Origin: a virus | Taxonomy: Duplodnaviria; Heunggongvirae; Uroviricota; Caudoviricetes | Length of the DNA stretch: 8,430 nucleotides | IMG/VR virus record: IMGVR_UViG_2667527792_000006 | Location: 1 to 8,430 of that record | Strand: one strand, 5' to 3' | Part shown: positions 1 to 8,430 of the stretch, piece by piece | How the letters are laid out: the number at the start of each line of letters is the position of its first letter | How positions within the stretch are numbered: the first letter of the stretch is position 1 | Position numbers and translations under genes: made by a program | Notes under the pieces: generated by a model | Told to the model about the DNA's origin: nothing | Database searches by the model: none | What the model saw: only the letters and a program-made list of their open reading frames with translations

Positions 1-299
1 GGCGCAACAGCGGGTGTGCGGCTGAGAGCCGCATCGGGGAAGTTGTGTCCATTTTCAGGGGAATGGAGTAAAAAACCATCAGTGATATGCAGTATCAATC
101 GATAAGATCCATTTAATTGACGGCGGTGCACTCATGGCACGCAGGCAGTGTTGAATAAACATCCGTTTTTTGGGTGTTTTTTTAATCTTTTTGGGATTTA
201 AATTCCTATCGATGAACGTTCGCGACGACCGCAACGCCGGATCAGCGCTGGCCCCGGCAGTGTGTTTCGCTTACAGCCCGGACAGAAAAGGCATCCACT

Positions 300-315
300 C
301 CACTGCATGCAGTGG
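300..315. repeat. 16-bp perfect palindrome CCACTGCATGCAGTGG
   Basis: Seen directly: positions 300-315 are self-complementary around a central GCATGC (SphI-like) core. Sits in a locally GC-richer patch of the otherwise AT-rich first segment. Confidence 0.5.
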
Positions 316-495
316 CGATCGTGAAGAAATACCTTCAGCATCAGAGTTATTGACTGATTGTTTGAATTTTCGGACAAACTCCTTTATTTTTAAAGAGTTG
401 ACTGAAATCAAAAGTTCTTTTTTGTTTGAGTGTATAGCAAAATCTAACCCGTAGATAATAATCTGAAACTATTCATAGACTATCACTATTTTCTA

Positions 496-747
496 CTATA
501 ATCTACTTTTGACAGAATTGATTTCGTAGGCACTATTTTTCTCTGGGCTAAAAATAATAAACCTTCGACTACCCGATCTAAATGATTTTGATAATACCAA
601 ATTGCTGTTGTAACGTGCCAAAATGTAATGCCATTCATTTTTATATCTTACCATTCCATATTCCTTTCTGAATTGCGGCTTATACCATCCAACAACCAAA
701 GAAAACATCCAAAAATAAACTAAAAACCATGCCATGTTGAATTCCAC
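496..747 (-). CDS. Downstream ORF (83 aa) continuing the membrane protein: one hydrophobic helix then a basic tail of about 60 aa
   Basis: GTG at 745-747 (ATG at 733-735). Overlaps the upstream ORF by 28 bp in another frame. A single-base insertion in the A5/T5 run would fuse the two frames (...STWHGF + LVYFWMF...). TAG stop at 496-498. Confidence 0.4.
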   Translation of the reverse strand: MEFNMAWFLVYFWMFSLVVGWYKPQFRKEYGMVRYKNEWHYILARYNSNLVLSKSFRSGSRRFIIFSPEKNSAYEINSVKSRL

Positions 748-1211
748 TCGATGTTTTCGAAGGAACTTGTTTTGCAGTATAAAAGCGAATGAAAAAAATG
801 CCCGTATCCTCTCACCACAAAAGTGATAGCAGCCGCAACTATAACAGAGAAGACCGTTAGCTTAATTGCAATATCTTGCTTTAATATAGAGAATTCGATA
901 ATAACAGGGGTAAATAGCAGAAAAATGGCAAGAAAAAGCCTTGTAAAACTCAATTCCTGCATATTACTGCGCTGTTTTACACTAATAAAAAATGCCAAAC
1001 CTATTCCCCATCCCAACAGAAATATTCCCATCACAGTGACAGCATATAATAGACTTCTGGCAACATCATCCATTCCAGCGCTAACAACCCACCATGGGTA
1101 TCCATAGTAAAAGGATATCCCCCAACCGTAAAAGTACGCACTTTCCCATCCTAAACATCCCATGTAAGCTACAAATAATGATGAATTTTTAATCAGCTTA
1201 TTGTCATCCAT
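720..1211 (-). CDS. Hypothetical polytopic membrane protein, upstream ORF (163 aa); probably the 5' part of a frameshifted gene of about 246 aa
   Basis: ATG at 1209-1211 with weak GAGA Shine-Dalgarno upstream. About four hydrophobic helices rich in W/Y/G/F. Visibly AT-rich compared with the rest of the window. TAG stop at 720-722 sits immediately after an A5 run (722-726, T5 on the coding strand). No family recognised. Confidence 0.5.
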   Translation of the reverse strand: MDDNKLIKNSSLFVAYMGCLGWESAYFYGWGISFYYGYPWWVVSAGMDDVARSLLYAVTVMGIFLLGWGIGLAFFISVKQRSNMQELSFTRLFLAIFLLFTPVIIEFSILKQDIAIKLTVFSVIVAAAITFVVRGYGHFFHSLLYCKTSSFENIEWNSTWHGF

Positions 1212-1297
1212 GTTAATTCTCGTAATTTTTCAGTAGAATTAATTAACTATAAAAATTTAATCTGTTAGATATTTAGACGCGATAATAACAGAGGTTT

Positions 1298-1317
1298 TTG
1301 TGTAGAAAAATACACAA
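1298..1317. repeat. Inverted repeat TTGTGTA-GAAAAA-TACACAA in the AT-rich region upstream of the membrane-protein ORF
   Basis: Seen directly: 7-bp arms at 1298-1304 and 1311-1317 are exact reverse complements. Lies 87-106 bp upstream of the ATG at 1211 on the template side. Operator-like, function unknown. Confidence 0.45.
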
Positions 1318-1463
1318 GATAGGTTTAACTCATGTGTTGATCCCTTCTTGAATGAAATGGAGCTAAATCTATTTGGATAGTCTGGTAATAACCAATTATT
1401 TGCATTAGTTGCGACTAGATCTGACACATAGCCTTGACAGGTTGAGAGTTACCGGTTTTGTAT

Positions 1464-1658
1464 CTGGTATTAACCGGGCGTTATTTCCAGGAGATTAACG
1501 GTAAGCGCGTGTTACTGGAACGGGGCGATTTTGTTTTTATTCCGTTAGGTTCGCACCATCAAAGTTTTTATGAGTTTGGTGCCACGCGTATATTGAACGT
1601 TGGGATCAGTAAACGCTTTTTTGAGCAGCATTACCTGCCGTTGTTGCCTTATTGCTTC
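1464..1658 (+). pseudogene. chbR: AraC-family regulator internal fragment (N-terminal sugar-binding domain), matching ChbR at roughly residues 50-115; no start, no HTH domain
   Basis: Translation [65 protein letters not shown] matches my recollection of E. coli ChbR. The frame then runs into cusA-derived sequence. Boundaries are +/-5 bp. Confidence 0.55.
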
Positions 1659-2667
1659 TGCGCTTGCCGAGCGTCTGGAAGGTGGGCGCTATATCAACGT
1701 TGAGATTAACCGTGAAAAAGCCGCGCGTTACGGTATGACGGTGGCGGATGTGCAGTTGTTTGTGACTTCTGCGGTGGGCGGGGCGATGGTTGGCGAAACG
1801 GTGGAAGGGATTGCCCGTTATCCCATTAATCTGCGTTATCCGCAAAGCTGGCGCGATAGTCCGCAGGCACTGCGCCAGTTGCCGATCCTGACGCCGATGA
1901 AGCAGCAAATCACCCTGGCAGACGTGGCCGACGTTAAAGTCTCTACCGGACCGTCGATGCTGAAAACCGAGAATGCGCGCCCGACGAGCTGGATTTATAT
2001 CGATGCCCGCGATCGTGACATGGTGTCGGTGGTTCACGATTTGCAAAAAGTGATAGCTGAAAAAGTGCAGTTAAAACCGGGCACCAGCGTGGCATTCTCC
2101 GGGCAGTTCGAGCTACTGGAGCGCGCCAACCATAAGCTGAAACTCATGGTGCCGATGACACTGATGATCATCTTCGTGCTGTTGTATCTGGCATTCCGTC
2201 GGGTGGGCGAAGCGTTGCTGATTATCAGCAGCGTACCGTTTGCGCTGGTGGGCGGCATCTGGTTGCTGTGGTGGATGGGCTTTCATCTTTCTGTGGCGAC
2301 GGGTACTGGCTTTATTGCCCTTGCCGGGGTCGCCGCCGAATTTGGCGTGGTGATGCTGATGTATTTACGTCACGCCATAGAGGCCGAGCCGTCGTTGAAT
2401 AATCCGCAAACATTCAGTGAGCAGAAGCTGGATGAGGCGTTGTATCACGGCGCGGTACTGCGCGTGCGCCCGAAAGCGATGACGGTGGCGGTGATTATCG
2501 CCGGTCTGCTGCCGATTCTGTGGGGAACGGGGGCTGGTTCAGAGGTGATGAGCCGGATTGCCGCACCGATGATTGGCGGCATGATCACCGCACCTTTGCT
2601 GTCGCTGTTTATTATCCCGGCGGCGTATAAGCTGATGTGGCTGCACCGACATCGGGTACGGAAATAA
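1659..2667 (+). CDS. cusA: CusA copper/silver RND efflux pump, C-terminal ~335 aa only (5'-truncated at a junction); the ORF-track start at 1600 lies in unrelated sequence
   Basis: Translation ends ...[23 protein letters not shown] with TAA at 2665-2667, matching the CusA C-terminus. Typical RND transmembrane helices ([15 protein letters not shown]..., [11 protein letters not shown]...). Confidence 0.85.
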
Positions 2668-2768
2668 AAGCAGGATACCCCGTTTAACCGTGTGGATTGT
2701 GTCTTGCGACGATGGGCACTAAATGTTAAAAGGTGCCCCTCAACAAAAAAGACACACAGGGGAAAGGC
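2668..2768 (+). promoter_or_regulatory. cusA-pheP intergenic region with pheP 5' leader and ribosome-binding site
   Basis: AGGGG motif at 2758-2762, 6 nt upstream of the GTG at 2769. This intergenic spacing is the native cusA-pheP arrangement in E. coli. Confidence 0.5.
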
Positions 2769-3739
2769 GTGAAAAACGCGTCAACCGTATCGGAAGATAC
2801 TGCGTCGAATCAAGAGCCGACGCTTCATCGCGGATTACATAACCGTCATATTCAACTGATTGCGCTGGGTGGCGCAATTGGTACTGGTCTGTTTCTTGGC
2901 ATTGGCCCGGCGATTCAGATGGCGGGTCCGGCTGTATTGCTGGGCTACGGCGTCGCCGGGATCATCGCTTTCCTGATTATGCGCCAGCTCGGCGAGATGG
3001 TGGTCGAAGAGCCGGTATCCGGTTCGTTTGCCCACTTTGCCTATAAATACTGGGGACCGTTCGCGGGCTTCCTCTCTGGCTGGAACTACTGGGTGATGTT
3101 CGTGCTGGTGGGGATGGCAGAGCTGACCGCTGCGGGCATCTATATGCAGTACTGGTTCCCGGATGTTCCAACGTGGATTTGGGCTGCCGCCTTCTTTATT
3201 ATCATCAACGCCGTTAACCTGGTGAACGTGCGCTTATATGGCGAAACCGAGTTCTGGTTTGCGTTGATTAAAGTGCTGGCGATCATCGGTATGATCGGCT
3301 TTGGCCTGTGGCTGCTGTTTTCTGGTCACGGCGGCGAGAAAGCCAGTATCGACAACCTCTGGCGCTACGGTGGTTTCTTCGCCACCGGCTGGAATGGGCT
3401 GATTTTGTCGCTGGCGGTAATTATGTTCTCCTTCGGCGGTCTGGAGCTGATTGGGATTACTGCCGCTGAAGCGCGCGATCCGGAAAAAAGCATTCCAAAA
3501 GCGGTAAATCAGGTGGTGTATCGCATCCTGCTGTTTTACATCGGTTCACTGGTGGTTTTACTGGCGCTCTATCCGTGGGTGGAAGTGAAATCCAACAGTA
3601 GCCCGTTTGTGATGATTTTCCATAATCTCGACAGCAACGTGGTAGCTTCTGCGCTGAACTTCGTCATTCTGGTAGCATCGCTGTCAGTGTATAACAGCGG
3701 GGTTTACTCTAACAGCCGCATGCTGTTTGGCCTTTCTGT
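2769..3739 (+). CDS. pheP: PheP phenylalanine-specific APC-family permease, N-terminal ~323 of 458 aa (3'-truncated); the ORF reads on to 3815 through foreign sequence
   Basis: GTG start giving [42 protein letters not shown]..., matching PheP. Match ends after ...[10 protein letters not shown]; the tail [24 protein letters not shown] is ybhG-derived DNA read in the wrong frame. Confidence 0.85.
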
Positions 3740-3967
3740 CCGGCGACCATCAGTTTTGTCGCCAGTGTCGCCCAGTTCACGCCAAAAACCGTCGAAACCA
3801 GCGATGAACGGCTGAAACTGATGTTCCGCGTCAAAGCGCGTATCCCACCGGAATTACTCCAGCAGCATCTGGAATATGTCAAAACCGGTTTACCGGGCGT
3901 AGCGTGGGTGCGGGTGAATGAAGAACTTCCGTGGCCTGACGACCTCGTGGTGAGGTTGCCGCAATGA
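3740..3967 (+). CDS. ybhG: HlyD-family membrane fusion protein, C-terminal ~75 aa fragment (ybhG-like)
   Basis: Frame gives ...[53 protein letters not shown] with TGA at 3965-3967 overlapping the next ATG (ATGA). No 5' end present. Confidence 0.55.
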
Positions 3968-4354
3968 CGCATCTGGAACTGGTTCCCGTCCCGCCTGTCG
4001 CGCAACTGGCGGGCGTGAGCCAGCATTATGGAAAAACCGTTGCGCTGAACAATATTACTCTCGATATTCCGGCCCGCTGTATGGTCGGGCTGATTGGTCC
4101 GGATGGCGTCGGGAAGTCGAGCTTATTGTCGTTGATTTCCGGTGCCCGCGTCATTGAGCAGGGCAATGTGATGGTGCTGGGCGGCGATATGCGCGACCCG
4201 AGGCATCGCCGCGACGTCTGCCCGCGCATCGCCTGGATGCCGCAGGGGCTGGGCAAAAACCTCTACCACACCTTGTCGGTGTATGAAAACGTCGATTTTT
4301 TCGCTCGCCTGTTCGGTCACGACAAAGCGGAGCGGGAAGTGCGAATTAATGAAC
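3964..4354 (+). CDS. ybhF: ABC transporter ATP-binding protein, N-terminal ~130 aa fragment (ybhF-like); the ORF runs to 4377 in glmS-derived sequence
   Basis: [53 protein letters not shown]... with Walker A motif GPDGVGKSS. Match ends after ...EREVRINEL; the tail CRSGRC* is chimeric. Confidence 0.6.
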
Positions 4355-5143
4355 TCTGCCGGTCTGGCCGTTGTTGATGCAGAAGGTCATATGACCCGCC
4401 TGCGTCGCCTCGGTAAAGTCCAGATGCTGGCTCAGGCAGCGGAAGAACATCCTCTGCATGGCGGCACCGGTATTGCTCATACTCGCTGGGCGACCCACGG
4501 TGAACCTTCAGAAGTGAATGCGCATCCGCATGTTTCTGAACACATTGTGGTGGTGCATAACGGCATCATCGAAAACCATGAACCGCTGCGTGAAGAGTTA
4601 AAAGCGCGTGGCTATACCTTCGTTTCTGAAACTGACACCGAAGTGATTGCCCATCTGGTGAACTGGGAGCTGAAACAAGGCGGGACTCTGCGTGAGGCTG
4701 TTCTGCGTGCTATCCCGCAGCTGCGTGGTGCGTACGGTACAGTGATTATGGACTCCCGTCACCCGGATACCCTGCTGGCGGCACGTTCTGGTAGTCCGCT
4801 GGTGATTGGCCTGGGTATGGGCGAAAACTTTATCGCTTCTGACCAGCTGGCGCTGTTGCCGGTGACCCGTCGCTTTATCTTCCTTGAAGAGGGCGATATT
4901 GCGGAAATTACTCGCCGTTCGGTAAACATCTTCGATAAAACTGGCGCGGAAGTAAAACGTCAGGATATTGAATCCAATCTGCAATATGACGCGGGCGATA
5001 AAGGTATTTACCGTCACTACATGCAGAAAGAGATCTACGAACAGCCAAACGCGATCAAAAACACCCTTACCGGGCGCATCAGCCACGGTCAGGTTGATTT
5101 AAGCGAGCTGGGACCGAACGCCGACGAACTGCTGTCGAAGGTT
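4355..5143 (+). CDS. glmS: GlmS glutamine--fructose-6-phosphate aminotransferase, internal fragment (about residues 31-293 of 609); lacks the N-terminal catalytic Cys and the whole isomerase domain
   Basis: [60 protein letters not shown]...NADELLSKV matches GlmS. The ORF-track start at 4283 lies in ybhF sequence, and the tail FSTA* is nikE antisense. Confidence 0.9.
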
Positions 5144-5960
<817 letters not shown>

Positions 5961-5964
<4 letters not shown>

Positions 5965-6284
5965 TGCGGAAAGTACCTGTACGGGCCGACAAGCCAGCCA
6001 AAACTCTGCGGCATGTCGAGTTTCTCCACTTCCGTAACCGACGAGCGGTTTTCGTAAAAATGGCTGATAAGCATCAGCATCCCCAGACGAATATCATCCG
6101 GCAGGTGCAGCCCGTCCGGATCGCTGTCCGGAATGGTTTCATGCGGTGCATAGAGCTTCCGGTTCAGATACGTTTCCGTCCGCTTTTGTGCCGCACAGGC
6201 CAGCAGTTGCAGATGGCGGTCATCAGTATCGAAATCCTCATCCAGCCGGAGTTGGGCTTTAATCTCTTCCATTGTCAGAAGCAT
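5961..6284 (-). CDS. Phage gp6-like head-tail connector / head completion protein
   Basis: 107 aa, MLLTMEEIKAQLRLDEDFDTDDRHLQLL... resembles the HK97 gp6-like connector family. Tightly packed after the capsid gene and the small ORF. Confidence 0.65.
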
Positions 6285-6286
6285 GC

Positions 6287-6487
6287 TCAGCCCTCTTTAC
6301 TGGTCGTGGCTTTTTTCTCTTTTGCCGCTTTACTGCTTTTTGCACTGATTCCGCGCTCTGCTAACCCGGCCTGAAGTGCAATCTCCTGCACACGGGCAGG
6401 AAGCGCCCCGTCGTCATACTCACCGGCCCGAATGACCTCAACACGCATACCGTCCGGTGACCATTTCAGATCTTGTTTCAGGATCAT
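6287..6487 (-). CDS. Hypothetical 66-aa protein inside the head module, with a Lys/Ala/Ser-rich C-terminal tail
   Basis: ATG at 6485-6487; stop 2 nt before the connector ATG. Same strand and tight packing as the flanking structural genes. No recognisable family. Confidence 0.4.
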   Translation of the reverse strand: MILKQDLKWSPDGMRVEVIRAGEYDDGALPARVQEIALQAGLAERGISAKSSKAAKEKKATTSKEG

Positions 6488-6510
6488 GATTCTTCACCCG
6501 TCAGAACAGG

Positions 6511-6528
6511 GGGCGCGGTTCCGCGCCC
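6511..6528 (-). other. GC-rich hairpin (GGGCGCGG-TT-CCGCGCCC) between the capsid stop and the 66-aa ORF start
   Basis: Seen directly: 8-bp GC-only arms (effectively a 7-bp stem with a 4-nt loop) within the 47-nt intergenic gap on the transcribed strand. No U-tract follows, so not a classic intrinsic terminator. Confidence 0.4.
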
Positions 6529-6536
6529 ATGAATGA

Positions 6537-7742
6537 TTACGCCGCTGCAATCTTCAGCAGTTTGATGGCCTGCGAATCGACCAGCATGCCGCCGGTGCGC
6601 TTGGTGGTATAAAAACCGACAAATGGTTTATTGGTGTACGGATCACGCAGAATGCGGGTACCGATACGGTCAACGATGGTGTAACCCCGCTTGAAGTTAC
6701 CAAATGCAATAGCTTTCGCATCAGCGGCGATATCCGGCATCTGTTCGTTTTCAGCGATACCGTAACCCGCCAGAGAGGACGGTTGCCCCAGCTCCAGCCC
6801 CGGACGCCACAGATAGTTACCCTCGGTGTCTTTCAACAGACGGATGGCAAACAGGCTGTTGTTGTTCATCATGAACTTCGCGCCAGTGCGGTGTGCCTTA
6901 CGCAGCGTGTAAATCAGTTTGATAATGGCGTCTGCGGTCACCGTCGTCGCTTCACCGGATACAATATGCTGAAGTTTACCGAACGCACGAACCTTATCGG
7001 TTTCATCGGTGGATTCATACGCCAGGAACCCTTTTGGCTTCTTGGTGCCATCACCGGTGGTAAAGGCAATTTCTTCCTGTTCAGCAAATTCGGTCGCCAG
7101 CTCGCTGTTGATCCAGGCCTCCACGTTGAAGAAGGCATCATCCAGCATTTTCTGAGTGGCCTGCGGGTTACCGTAGATTTCCCCCATGAAAGGTTCAATC
7201 AGCCCCAGTTTTGAGGTGGCAGTCTGGGAGCGCGCGTCAGTCTCGCCCACCCATCCGGAAGCCGTGCCGCCCAGATTCACCAGTTTTTTGTAGTCGGAAC
7301 CGCCAACAGTGATCACCGTGGCTTCCTGGCGCATCACCACTTCATCTTTCAGCAGGGTGAGAATGTTGCGATCCAGTGCTTCCGGCACGGCATAGCCACC
7401 GTCTTCATCGGTGCCCACCTGTAATGCCTTGCGCTCCAGATCGCGCAGACCGTCTTCACGGCCTTTACGCAGAAAGCCCACAAACGCTTCTTTATGCTCA
7501 GTGGCCAGTTTATTTTGCACACCACCTGCCGGACGTTTCAGCTCAAGCAGCTCTTTTTCAAGGTCGCTTTTGAGATTTTCCAGCTCGCTGAGTTTCCCGT
7601 TCAGGGTTTCCACCTGCCCGGCAAGTTTGCCTTTTTCCTGCTCAATCGCATCCACGCGCTTGTCGTTCTTTGCCTTGAAGTCGTCAAACTTCTGCTGCAG
7701 CTCCTGCGCGACCTGTTCCACATCTTTAATATCAACCGCCAT
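6537..7742 (-). CDS. HK97-fold major capsid protein with N-terminal coiled-coil delta (scaffold) domain
   Basis: 401 aa. First ~70 aa are heptad-like and charged (VEQVAQELQQKFDDFKAKNDKRVDAIEQEKGKLAGQVETLNGKLSELENLKSDLEKELLELK), followed by a capsid-like body. Strong AGGAG Shine-Dalgarno 7 nt upstream of the ATG at 7740-7742. Confidence 0.85.
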   Translation of the reverse strand: MAVDIKDVEQVAQELQQKFDDFKAKNDKRVDAIEQEKGKLAGQVETLNGKLSELENLKSDLEKELLELKRPAGGVQNKLATEHKEAFVGFLRKGREDGLRDLERKALQVGTDEDGGYAVPEALDRNILTLLKDEVVMRQEATVITVGGSDYKKLVNLGGTASGWVGETDARSQTATSKLGLIEPFMGEIYGNPQATQKMLDDAFFNVEAWINSELATEFAEQEEIAFTTGDGTKKPKGFLAYESTDETDKVRAFGKLQHIVSGEATTVTADAIIKLIYTLRKAHRTGAKFMMNNNSLFAIRLLKDTEGNYLWRPGLELGQPSSLAGYGIAENEQMPDIAADAKAIAFGNFKRGYTIVDRIGTRILRDPYTNKPFVGFYTTKRTGGMLVDSQAIKLLKIAAA

Positions 7743-7756
7743 CGTATTTCTCCTGA

Positions 7757-8407
7757 TTAGAAGTTCAGATTTTTCAGTGCATTCAGTGCAGAGCCCACAT
7801 CCTCAGCGTCGCGCAGGGACAGTGCGCCATAGCCCCCGGCCATGAATGCTTTGGCCTGGGTACGGGAGAGTCCGACATCACGCAGGACTCTTTCGATTTT
7901 TTTCTGTTCAGGGATTTCCCCGCGGGCCAGCGCGTTCTTGACGTCGCTGATCCGCGCCTCGTCGTTAGACGGAAACGTCACCAGACTGACTTCCCAGAGG
8001 TCGATTTCTTTCAGCAAAAAGGCTTCTTTCGTCCGGTCGTATTCCCAGTCTTTCAGGACGTACCCAATAGAAAGGCCGGTTAACGAACCGGCCTTCATGT
8101 GTGCATGTGCGCGTTTTGCCAGGGGATCATCATCAATAAGCAACCGTCCCCTGACGTAAAGCCCGACATCGTCTTCCTTCATTTCGGTGTAAACACCGAT
8201 GGGTTCATCCATGCGGTGCTGCCAGAGCAGCGCAGGTAACGCTTTTCTGTCACTCCACGCCCGCAGGGAAGCAGCAAATGCCCCGGACATCACCACATCA
8301 TCGTGGCTGTCCTTTACACCAAAGACGGAGCCATACCCTTCAAACTCACCGGAGTCACTGACAGATTTCAGACTCAGCGGTACATCAAGACGTTGTTTCG
8401 TCTGCAT
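7757..8407 (-). CDS. Prohead maturation protease (HK97 gp4-like, S78 family)
   Basis: 216 aa with the N-terminal pattern EFEGYGSVFGVKDSHDDVVMSGAF typical of phage prohead proteases. Sits directly upstream of the capsid gene with a 14-nt spacer. AAGGA Shine-Dalgarno 8 nt before the ATG at 8405-8407. Confidence 0.75.
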   Translation of the reverse strand: MQTKQRLDVPLSLKSVSDSGEFEGYGSVFGVKDSHDDVVMSGAFAASLRAWSDRKALPALLWQHRMDEPIGVYTEMKEDDVGLYVRGRLLIDDDPLAKRAHAHMKAGSLTGLSIGYVLKDWEYDRTKEAFLLKEIDLWEVSLVTFPSNDEARISDVKNALARGEIPEQKKIERVLRDVGLSRTQAKAFMAGGYGALSLRDAEDVGSALNALKNLNF

Positions 8408-8430
8408 TGGCGTTATCCTTCTGCTTACCG

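What the first reader, a model, noticed from the sequence alone, without database searches (positions are those of the whole stretch)
496..1211. Low-GC membrane-protein gene of unknown family, split in two at a homopolymer run
Two overlapping minus-strand ORFs (163 and 83 aa) together encode about five hydrophobic helices and a basic C-terminal tail. They are separated only by a frame change at the A5/T5 run at 722-726, so one extra base there would give a single ORF of about 246 aa. The composition is far more AT-rich than the E. coli core fragments, suggesting horizontal acquisition. I do not recognise the protein. Size, topology and AT-richness are compatible with accessory membrane proteins such as bacteriocin immunity or CPBP/Abi-like proteins, or surface-polysaccharide modification enzymes, but that is speculation. 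A loose resemblance of QELSFTR and HFFH to CPBP motifs is too weak to call.
Basis: partly seen in the sequence, partly recalled or inferred. Interest (0 to 1): 0.45.

Follow-up and report, generated by a model that had tools for sequence, protein, structure and literature searches.

The report
Broken phage/plasmid membrane-protein gene

Summary
The split gene is real. ORFs of 163 aa (720-1211, minus) and 83 aa (496-747, minus) are two halves of one 238-aa gene, not 246 aa. The frameshift is not at the A5 run 722-726, which is identical in intact and broken alleles. Intact alleles at 98-99.7% identity read CATCTTTTTTCA where the window reads CATTTTTTTCA. One C:G pair is therefore missing at window 797/798, which creates the A7/T7 run 792-798.

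The same lesion occurs in a complete IncF plasmid (CP024249.1), two other assemblies and at least 52 public contigs, so it is not a sequencing error. A Gly23-to-Glu change at a nearly invariant glycine arose after the frameshift. Sister alleles carry other independent knock-outs.

The protein belongs to Pfam PF27470 ("TfpB"), PHROG 1521 and PGAP's "STM1630 family". The model shows five membrane helices plus a small C-terminal beta domain, with no solved structural relative.

Homologues are single 237-238-aa genes. They sit directly after antiterminator Q in lambdoid phages (phage 434, O157:H7 prophages), on virulence plasmids, and beside sseJ in Salmonella. Function is unknown. CPBP/Abi resemblance is not supported; the "HFFH" motif is an out-of-frame artefact.

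The parts
496..1211 (-). Whole pseudogene: a TfpB/STM1630-family (PF27470, PHROG 1521) membrane-protein gene. It would encode 238 aa if one base were restored.
   Evidence: The restored protein is 98% identical to the intact 238-aa P0001 (E 8e-150). It matches PHROG 1521 at E 8.5e-82 over profile positions 1-221 of 222. The precomputed Pfam hit is PF27470:TfpB.
720..1211 (-). Upstream ORF, 163 aa: 138 native residues (helices 1-4) followed by 25 shifted-frame residues (FFHSLLYCKTSSFENIEWNSTWHGF). The stop codon TAG is at 720-722.
   Evidence: Helix boundaries come from the AF2 model.
496..747 (-). Downstream ORF, 83 aa from GTG 747 (79 aa from ATG 735), in the native reading frame. It encodes helix 5 and the C-terminal beta domain. 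This frame is open upstream to about 862.
   Evidence: It aligns to residues about 156-238 of intact homologues. It is called as a separate 79-aa gene in other assemblies.
792..798 (.). The lesion site. This A7 run (T7 on the coding strand) was created by loss of one G:C pair between 797 and 798. Intact alleles read CATCTTTTTTCA, the window reads CATTTTTTTCA, and a third allele reads CATTTTTTTTCA (T8, in frame).
   Evidence: DNA alignments A1 and A7 and a motif scan. The HMM score is highest for repair at 796-798.
722..726 (.). It is not the lesion: it merely contains the stop codon of the shifted frame.
   Evidence: GGTTTTTAG is identical in intact alleles (L004, L005, L006, L012) and broken alleles. 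Repair here scores about 26-28 bits lower.
1144..1144 (-). Substitution GGA to GAA (Gly23Glu) at a nearly invariant glycine of the GWGSAYFYGWG motif. It arose after the frameshift.
   Evidence: The window, L008 and L009 have A here. The frameshifted plasmid CP024249.1 (L011) and the intact alleles have G. G23 is at least 90% conserved.
1..1463 (.). The block of plasmid origin that holds the gene. Positions about 207-1463 are the AT-rich islet, and 207-298 matches DNA annotated as IS66-family transposase in many plasmids. All plasmid matches end exactly at 1463.
   Evidence: 100% identity to L009, 99.8% to CP024249.1 and 99.7% to pLAO6 over 1-1463.

Best explanation
Window 496-1211 (minus strand) is a frameshift-inactivated copy of a 238-aa accessory inner-membrane protein gene. 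The family is Pfam PF27470 'TfpB', also PHROG 1521 and PGAP's 'STM1630 family'. The gene sits in an AT-rich, IS-flanked islet of an IncF-type E. coli plasmid.

Shown:
- One C:G pair is missing at window 797/798. This turns CAT-C-TTTTTT into a T7 run.
- Translation therefore leaves the native frame after residue 138 and stops at TAG 720-722. The product is a 163-aa stub that lacks helix 5 and the C-terminal beta domain.
- The allele circulates in several strains. It picked up a Gly23Glu change at a nearly invariant residue after the frameshift.
- Sister alleles in the same >=90%-identity cluster carry other independent knock-outs. The gene is therefore dispensable and decaying.

Inferred:
- The deletion arose by misalignment at the run. 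It was either direct loss of the interrupting C, or a C-to-T change giving T8 (an allele that exists) followed by T8-to-T7 slippage.
- Intact protein: five transmembrane helices with the N-terminus in the cytoplasm. An aromatic AYxYGWG...YYGxPWW motif sits at the periplasmic end of helix 1, and a small five-strand beta domain lies in the periplasm. No conserved catalytic-type residues are present, so it is more likely a binding or scaffold protein than an enzyme.

Functional guess, about 0.2-0.3 confidence. In lambdoid phages the gene is the first gene after Q and tR', just ahead of the lysis genes, the slot where such phages often carry optional cargo genes. This suggests envelope cargo that serves the mobile element, for example by blocking entry of competing phage DNA or by modulating the envelope or lysis. 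It is unlikely to be a housekeeping or pilus function.
For: Lesion:
- Alignment with intact alleles at 98-99.7% identity shows a single indel at 797/798.
- The family-HMM scan peaks at 796-798.
- The protein repaired at that site aligns without gaps to 238-aa homologues, whereas the 722-726 repair needs gaps.

The lesion is real:
- The same T7 occurs in CP024249.1, CCCB01000908.1 and ERR738824.
- The 163-aa product is recorded on 52 contigs and the 79-aa partner on 56.

Decay:
- G23E arose after the frameshift.
- A 111-aa product that ends just before Gln112 is recorded on 86 contigs (its DNA was not read).
- A T8 allele carries a second C-loss (CAAAACAAG to CAAAAAAG) and a TGG-to-TAG change.
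- Other frameshifted or IS-truncated family members exist.
- E. coli Nissle 1917 carries a pseudogene.

Family:
- PF27470 is precomputed for the window's own ORF and for all homologues.
- PHROG 1521 matches at E 8.5e-82.
- The Salmonella copy is 48% identical and lies beside sseJ.
- PGAP uses the name 'STM1630 family protein'.

Context:
- Phage 434 has Q82-like, terminator, this gene, DUF3927, then the lysis genes.
- An O157:H7 prophage has the same order, and other prophages are similar.
- Plasmid copies are documented.
- 1194 of 5426 complete E. coli genomes hold a homologue.

Architecture: AF2 with a diverse alignment gives pLDDT 79.4 and pTM 0.69, with helices 3-36, 47-78, 89-111, 116-136 and 155-181 and strands within 187-232. 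Loop charges fit an N-in, C-out topology.
Against: - No function has been shown for any family member. Deleting Salmonella STM1630 gave no reproducible motility phenotype and no macrophage-replication phenotype.
- PADLOC has no match, so the defence or exclusion idea rests on gene position only.
- Topology is predicted, not measured. Helices 1 and 5 are only weakly hydrophobic on a Kyte-Doolittle scan.
- The T7 run is a U_UUU_UUU heptamer on which a -1 slip would restore the native frame, so the allele may not be a complete null.
- The 79-aa downstream ORF could be translated on its own.
- The contig holding the gene is chimeric beyond position 1463, although the gene lies in the verified block.
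Confidence: 0.87

Rival explanations
1. One reading: the frame change lies at the A5/T5 run 722-726 (A5 instead of A6), through slippage or a sequencing error there.
For: The two ORFs overlap at 720-747, and adding a base at 722-726 does give one 238-aa ORF.
Against: The run is identical (GGTTTTTAG) in four intact and several broken alleles. The only indel lies about 75 bases away on the + strand, at 797/798. Repair at 722-726 leaves 25 non-homologous residues, needs alignment gaps and scores about 26-28 bits lower.
Confidence: 0.02
2. The split is a sequencing or assembly artefact at a homopolymer, and the strain really carries an intact gene.
For: The lesion is in a 7-base homopolymer. The contig is demonstrably chimeric beyond position 1463.
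Against: An identical T7 is found in independent records: a complete plasmid, another NCBI assembly and a Logan assembly. The 163-aa product is recorded on 52 contigs. Lineage-specific substitutions accumulated after the frameshift. A 7-base run is not a typical Illumina error site.
Confidence: 0.04
3. The T-run works as an on/off (contingency) tract or a recoding site. T8 or C+T6 would be ON and T7 would be OFF. A -1 ribosomal slip on U_UUU_UUU, or transcriptional slippage, would still yield some full-length protein.
For: Three length or sequence states occur at the same tract in near-identical alleles. A -1 slip on the heptamer would restore exactly the native frame (read directly from the sequence). 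Other family alleles are frameshifted at the neighbouring KK(H) codons.
Against: The 81 nt from the tract onwards show no stimulatory structure (z = -0.81). The T8 alleles are themselves dead through two further lesions. The commonest intact alleles have the run interrupted by C, which lowers slippage. G23E drift after the frameshift argues for loss of constraint. Seven bases is short for efficient slippage (general knowledge).
Confidence: 0.06
4. It is a type IV pilus accessory protein, in the sense of the Pfam name TfpB or of the TfpY/FimB-like proteins, that helps pilin assembly.
For: The Pfam family is named TfpB, and one E. coli fragment is annotated 'protein tfpB'. Its size (238 aa) and its plan of N-terminal membrane helices plus a C-terminal beta domain predicted to be periplasmic resemble TfpY-like proteins of 235-245 aa.
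Against: No prepilin leader motif lies within about 6 kb in any of 33 loci. No annotated E. coli, phage or plasmid context holds a type IV pilin or pilus-assembly gene next to the gene; one fragment lies in a chaperone-usher (pap) fimbrial island. TfpY-like proteins are described with three membrane helices and a larger periplasmic domain, against five helices here. Homology to TfpY or FimB was not shown.
Confidence: 0.05
5. It is a CPBP/Abi-type intramembrane protease, a bacteriocin-immunity protein or a surface-polysaccharide modification enzyme.
For: Only its size, multi-pass topology and AT-richness fit. L004 carries a polysaccharide deacetylase and a GT4 glycosyltransferase 3-5 kb away.
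Against: There is no CPBP or any other significant Pfam, NCBIfam or PADLOC hit. 'HFFH' is a frameshift artefact, and 'QELSFTR' is not conserved. No conserved Glu/His/Asp pattern is present. The deacetylase and GT4 genes are not linked in other contexts.
Confidence: 0.03

Closest known systems
Pfam PF27470 'TfpB' / PHROG 1521: the phage 434 gene CPT_434_68 'putative membrane protein' and its O157:H7 prophage homologues
   Same: Same family: 54-60% identity over the full 238 aa, the same length, the same N-terminal aromatic motif and the same C-terminal domain. All are annotated only as hypothetical or putative membrane proteins.
   Different: The phage copies are intact and sit directly after antiterminator Q and its terminator, ahead of DUF3927 and the lysis genes. 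The window copy is plasmid-borne, flanked by IS elements and broken by a 1-base deletion.
Salmonella enterica STM1630
   Same: The Salmonella cluster P0194 is 48% identical over 238 aa with no gaps. It lies next to the SseJ effector gene, which is where STM1630 sits in LT2 (the LT2 gene order is from general knowledge). PGAP names an E. coli fragment of this family 'STM1630 family protein'.
   Different: STM1630 is chromosomal. It is up-regulated in macrophages and is listed among genes co-regulated with the SPI-2 virulence genes. Its promoter is inactivated in ST313 strains. Mutants showed no reproducible phenotype. No such data exist for the E. coli plasmid allele.
Intact sister alleles: pLAO6 WP_088551063.1 (NZ_OP242220.1) and P0001/P0283
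   Same: 99.7% DNA identity over window 1-1463. They share the same islet, with the same 211-aa hypothetical gene upstream.
   Different: They keep the C at the 797/798 site and Gly23, and they encode the full 238 aa.
TfpY/FimB-like type IV pilin accessory proteins (Qaderi et al. 2025, PMC11841053)
   Same: Similar size, a short cytoplasmic N-terminus, N-terminal membrane helices, a C-terminal beta-rich domain predicted to be periplasmic, and no recognisable catalytic domain.
   Different: Those genes lie immediately downstream of a major pilin gene and have three predicted membrane helices. This family has five predicted helices and no pilin gene nearby. Sequence homology could not be tested here.
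Phage cargo ('moron') inner-membrane exclusion proteins such as HK97 gp15, P22 SieA and T4 Imm (general knowledge)
   Same: They are small inner-membrane proteins carried as optional cargo by temperate or lytic phages. They are AT-rich, patchily distributed and often lost.
   Different: No sequence or fold relation was found. PADLOC gave no hit. The analogy rests on gene position and protein type only.

Membership tests
Pfam PF27470 (TfpB) | A significant match to the family HMM. | tested here: met
   The precomputed hit PF27470:TfpB is listed for the window's own 163-aa product (L007 7220-7711), for P0001 and for every homologue. The model is not in the local Pfam copy, so no score could be recomputed.
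Pfam PF27470 (TfpB) | An intact full-length ORF of about 237-245 aa. | tested here: not met
   A 1-base deletion at 797/798 splits it into 163-aa and 83-aa ORFs. It is a pseudogene member.
PHROG 1521 | A match across the whole profile. | tested here: met
   The protein rebuilt by adding one base at 792-798 matches at E 8.5e-82, residues 17-237 against profile positions 1-221 of 222. PHROGs also holds separate families for split halves (14371, 17164, 3985).
STM1630 family (PGAP name) | Homology to Salmonella STM1630, the gene next to sseJ. | tested here: met
   48% identity over 238 aa to the S. enterica cluster. The S. diarizonae copy lies beside an SseJ-type effector gene (NF011908, 408 of 408 positions). 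The STM1630 reference sequence itself was not at hand.
TfpY/FimB-like type IV pilin accessory proteins | The gene lies immediately downstream of a major type IV pilin gene. | tested here: not met
   No [GA][FM][TS][LF][ILV]E prepilin motif occurs in any frame within about 6 kb in 33 loci. No annotated context holds a type IV pilin or pilus-assembly gene next to the gene.
TfpY/FimB-like type IV pilin accessory proteins | Three transmembrane helices plus a periplasmic globular domain made of two beta-sheets. | tested here: inconclusive
   The AF2 model gives five helices and one five-strand domain. Only three segments are strongly hydrophobic.
TfpY/FimB-like type IV pilin accessory proteins | Sequence or profile homology to TfpY, TfpZ or FimB. 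| not testable with these tools
   No TfpY, FimB or Moraxella TfpB sequence could be retrieved. Profile searches returned only unnamed relatives in Enterobacteriaceae, Neisseriaceae and Pasteurellaceae.
CPBP (PF02517) intramembrane proteases / Abi | An HMM match and the conserved EExxxR, FxxxH and HxxxB motifs. | tested here: not met
   No hit at E<=1 for either ORF or for the rebuilt protein. 'HFFH' spans the frameshift, and 'QELSFTR' is variable across the family.
Known anti-phage defence proteins (PADLOC) | A match to any PADLOC model. | tested here: not met
   0 families at E<=1.

The most novel reading that the evidence does not exclude
The PF27470 family may be a new-fold envelope protein that lambdoid phages and plasmids use against competitors or to control lysis. 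It is expressed from the Q-dependent late transcript. Its repeated inactivation, including changes at the T-run 792-798 (C+T6, T8, T7), would then reflect fluctuating selection or a crude on/off tract rather than neutral decay.
Probability: 0.1. Interest if true: 0.5.

Novelty: new member of a known kind. Interest (0 to 1): 0.17.

Why it matters
For this window it matters little. It is a decaying cargo gene, and identical alleles are already in public records.

There are two useful by-products:
- Method. When two frames are both open for about 140 bases, the ORF overlap does not locate a frameshift. Comparison with an intact allele moved it about 75 bases and showed that one 'motif' was an artefact.
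- The family. It is present in about 22% of complete E. coli genomes. It occupies the first position after antiterminator Q in phage 434 and in O157:H7 prophages, and it includes the macrophage-induced Salmonella gene STM1630. It still has no known function and no solved structural relative. It is therefore a reasonable but modest target for phage-cargo or exclusion screens.

Tried and rejected
- Family libraries. Local Pfam gave only sub-threshold DUF4271 and DUF373 hits. NCBIfam gave nothing meaningful. PADLOC gave nothing.
- Origin of the name 'TfpB'. Literature searches returned chemistry, anaesthesia or the unrelated A. baylyi TfpB ATPase. Moraxella TfpB could not be retrieved. The profile search seeded with non-enteric members returned only unnamed Neisseriaceae and Pasteurellaceae proteins. 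The genome scan with the broad alignment failed and was redone with a narrower one.
- Other literature. Searches for phage 434 and TciB/DUF3927 found nothing relevant.
- Neighbouring genes. The 211-aa upstream gene, the small ORFs on L004 and the small phage ORFs gave no informative Pfam hits.
- Signals. The promoter and terminator scan of 200-1470 found no more sites than shuffled sequence.
- Ribosome-binding site. I first thought the ribosome-binding site had decayed (AAGGA to GAGAA). I rejected this because the intact pLAO6 allele has the same GAGAA version.
- Recoding. A stimulatory RNA structure for programmed frameshifting was rejected (z = -0.81).

Full report
**1. What is in the sequence**

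The minus strand of 496-1211 holds two overlapping ORFs: 720-1211 (163 aa, ATG start) and 496-747 (83 aa, GTG start). The region is AT-rich. GC is 0.32-0.38 over about 300-1350, against 0.50-0.60 in the rest of the window. However, the downstream frame is open far upstream of the overlap, to about position 862. A one-base insertion anywhere in about 720-862 would therefore fuse the ORFs, and the overlap cannot locate the lesion.

**2. Where the lesion is**

The window is the entire NCBI contig CDRT01000304.1 of assembly GCA_001373215.1.

- A search with a protein rebuilt by adding one base at 792-798 found an intact 238-aa protein, P0001, at 98% identity. Its DNA was recovered on three Logan contigs.
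- Alignment of those contigs with the window shows a single indel. The intact sequence is GGGCATCTTTTTTCATTCG and the window is GGGCAT-TTTTTTCATTCG.
- On the + strand this is the loss of one G between 797 and 798. It creates the A7 run 792-798.
It merely contains the TAG at which the shifted frame ends.
- As an independent check, I built a family HMM and scored every frame-restoring insertion position. The score peaks at 796-798 (381.7 bits) and falls to 354-356 bits at 722-726.
- The protein repaired at 792-798 aligns without gaps to 238-aa homologues. The 722-726 repair needs gaps and leaves 25 unrelated residues.
- The restored protein is 238 aa, not about 246.

**3. The lesion is real, and the gene is decaying**

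- The same T7 sequence is present in the complete plasmid CP024249.1 (E. coli O182:H21 D181), in CCCB01000908.1 and in a Logan assembly of ERR738824. pLAO6 (NZ_OP242220.1), which is 99.7% identical over window 1-1463, is intact.
- In the 90%-identity cluster, the 163-aa stub is recorded on 52 contigs and its 79-aa partner on 56. Intact 238-aa forms are on about 110 contigs.
- The window, L008 and L009 also carry GGA to GAA (Gly23Glu) at a glycine conserved in at least 90% of the family. The frameshifted CP024249.1 still has Gly there. This substitution therefore came after the frameshift, as expected for relaxed constraint.
- Other alleles of the same cluster are broken differently. A 111-aa product that ends just before Gln112 is recorded on 86 contigs (its DNA was not read). 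Another allele has T8 at the same tract (in frame, Leu139Phe) but has lost a second lone C (CAAAACAAG to CAAAAAAG) and has a TGG-to-TAG change.
- The T7 allele may thus derive either from direct loss of the interrupting C or from T8 by slippage. This step is inferred.
- More distant family members are also found frameshifted or truncated by an IS element. E. coli Nissle 1917 carries a pseudogene.

**4. What the gene is**

- Local Pfam, NCBIfam and PADLOC give nothing significant.
- The precomputed Pfam assignment for the window's own product and for all homologues is PF27470 'TfpB'.
- PHROGs places it in phrog_1521, of unknown function, at E 8.5e-82.
- An exhaustive profile search of 1.84 billion representatives found only 72 relatives. 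These are in Enterobacteriaceae, and more distantly (23-30% identity) in Neisseriaceae and Pasteurellaceae, where they are single genes among housekeeping genes.
- One E. coli fragment is annotated 'protein tfpB' and another 'STM1630 family protein'.
- The Salmonella copy is 48% identical over 238 aa and lies beside an SseJ-type effector gene. That is the position of STM1630.
- Published work describes STM1630 as up-regulated in macrophages and lists it among genes co-regulated with the SPI-2 virulence genes. Its promoter is silenced in ST313 strains. Its deletion had no effect on replication in macrophages, and an early hypermotility result was not among the confirmed phenotypes in a follow-up study.

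**5. Genomic context**

- In phage 434 the homologue (54% identical) is the first gene after the Q82-like antiterminator and its terminator. A DUF3927 gene, a small membrane protein, a SASA esterase and the lysis cassette follow it.
- An O157:H7 prophage has the order Q, this gene, DUF3927, holin.
- Other prophages place it between Q or the DNA methylase and tRNA genes on one side and the lysis genes on the other.
- On plasmids it lies in IS-rich islets.
- 1194 of 5426 complete E. coli genomes have a homologue detectable at the DNA level, mostly chromosomal.
- No prepilin motif occurs within about 6 kb in 33 loci. The name TfpB therefore does not imply a pilus role here.

**6. Structure and likely mode of action**

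- With a shallow alignment AF2 gave pLDDT 64. With a diverse 40-sequence alignment it gave pLDDT 79.4 and pTM 0.69.
- The better model has helices 3-36, 47-78, 89-111, 116-136 and 155-181, two short helices at 142-153, and a five-strand beta domain within 187-232.
- Loop charges place loops 79-91 and 134-157 in the cytoplasm. This puts the conserved aromatic motif (AYxYGWG...YYGxPWW) and the C-terminal domain in the periplasm. The topology is inferred, not measured.
- Nearly invariant residues are aromatic, Gly or Pro, plus one Arg. There is no catalytic-looking set.
- The 163-aa stub lacks helix 5 and the beta domain, so it is very probably non-functional.
- My functional guess is an envelope protein that serves the mobile element, through exclusion of incoming phage DNA or modulation of the envelope or lysis. 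It rests only on gene position and protein type, at about 0.2-0.3 confidence.

**7. Rivals**

- An assembly artefact is unlikely because independent records agree.
- Recoding or phase variation at the U_UUU_UUU tract is possible in principle, since a -1 slip would restore the native frame. But there is no stimulatory structure (z = -0.81), the T8 alleles are dead, and drift followed the frameshift.
- CPBP/Abi is not supported. 'HFFH' straddles the frameshift (the native sequence is GHLFSF), and 'QELSFTR' is variable.

**8. Surroundings**

Window 1-1463 is colinear with plasmids, and every plasmid match ends at 1463. Beyond that point the contig strings together fragments of ChbR, CusA-PheP, RbbA, GlmS and NikE/NikD, followed by HK97-type prophage head genes. 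These loci are unlinked in E. coli, so the contig is most likely a chimeric assembly. This does not affect the finding.

**Verdict**

This is an ordinary frameshift pseudogene of a catalogued but uncharacterised phage and plasmid cargo gene. Interest is low.

Noticed in passing
window 1463/1464 and onward (1464-8430): The contig is a chain of unlinked E. coli pieces. After the plasmid block 1-1463 come a ChbR fragment (profile positions 49-118 of 280), the CusA C-terminus with PheP 1-332, RbbA 1-123, GlmS 29-285, NikE 1-31 with NikD 111-230 on the minus strand, and then HK97-type prophage head genes at 5662-8430. It is most likely a chimeric short-read assembly.
   Followed up: partly
window 79-298: This is the end of an IS-like element. 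Window 207-298 matches DNA annotated as IS66-family transposase in about 1900 plasmids. The minus-strand ORF 79-234 (…IDRNLNPKKIKKTPKK…) resembles the foreign C-terminal tail of P0074, which is another family member truncated after about residue 66 by a related element.
   Followed up: partly
L037-L039 (positions about 1885-2016), aligned to window 700-830: A sister allele has T8 at the same tract (in frame). It has also lost the lone C in CAAAACAAG (giving A6) and carries a TGG-to-TAG change. Together with the window allele, this makes two separate losses of a single C that interrupts a homopolymer within 30 bases.
   Followed up: yes
P0002 (a single Logan contig, 237 aa): This allele follows the shifted frame for about 25 residues (GHLFHSLLYCKTSSFVNIEWNSIWHGF) and then returns to the native frame near the 722-726 run. 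It is either a compensated double frameshift or an assembly error.
   Followed up: no
L004 4650-5285, L012 10617-11252, L008 755-1390, L037 255-890: A 211-aa hypothetical gene with no Pfam hit always lies about 600 bp upstream, on the same strand as the plasmid allele. The two may form a two-gene islet. The window is cut at 1463, just before this gene.
   Followed up: partly
L010 (phage 434) 4100-8764; L035 (O157:H7) 3428-6125: The gene order is conserved: Q antiterminator, terminator, PF27470 gene, DUF3927 small membrane protein, lysis cassette. In this arrangement the family's gene is the first one after Q.
   Followed up: partly
PHROGs 14371, 17164 and 3985 against the repaired protein: PHROGs holds separate 'families' that match only residues 1-154, 1-85 or 160-237 of this protein. 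Split or truncated copies have therefore been catalogued as if they were separate genes.
   Followed up: no
L004 472-3981: The intact allele on L004 lies 2-5 kb from genes for a polysaccharide deacetylase, a GT4 glycosyltransferase, a DUF535 protein and a DsbA-like protein. From memory this resembles the shf-capU-virK cluster of enteroaggregative E. coli and Shigella virulence plasmids. I did not verify that.
   Followed up: no
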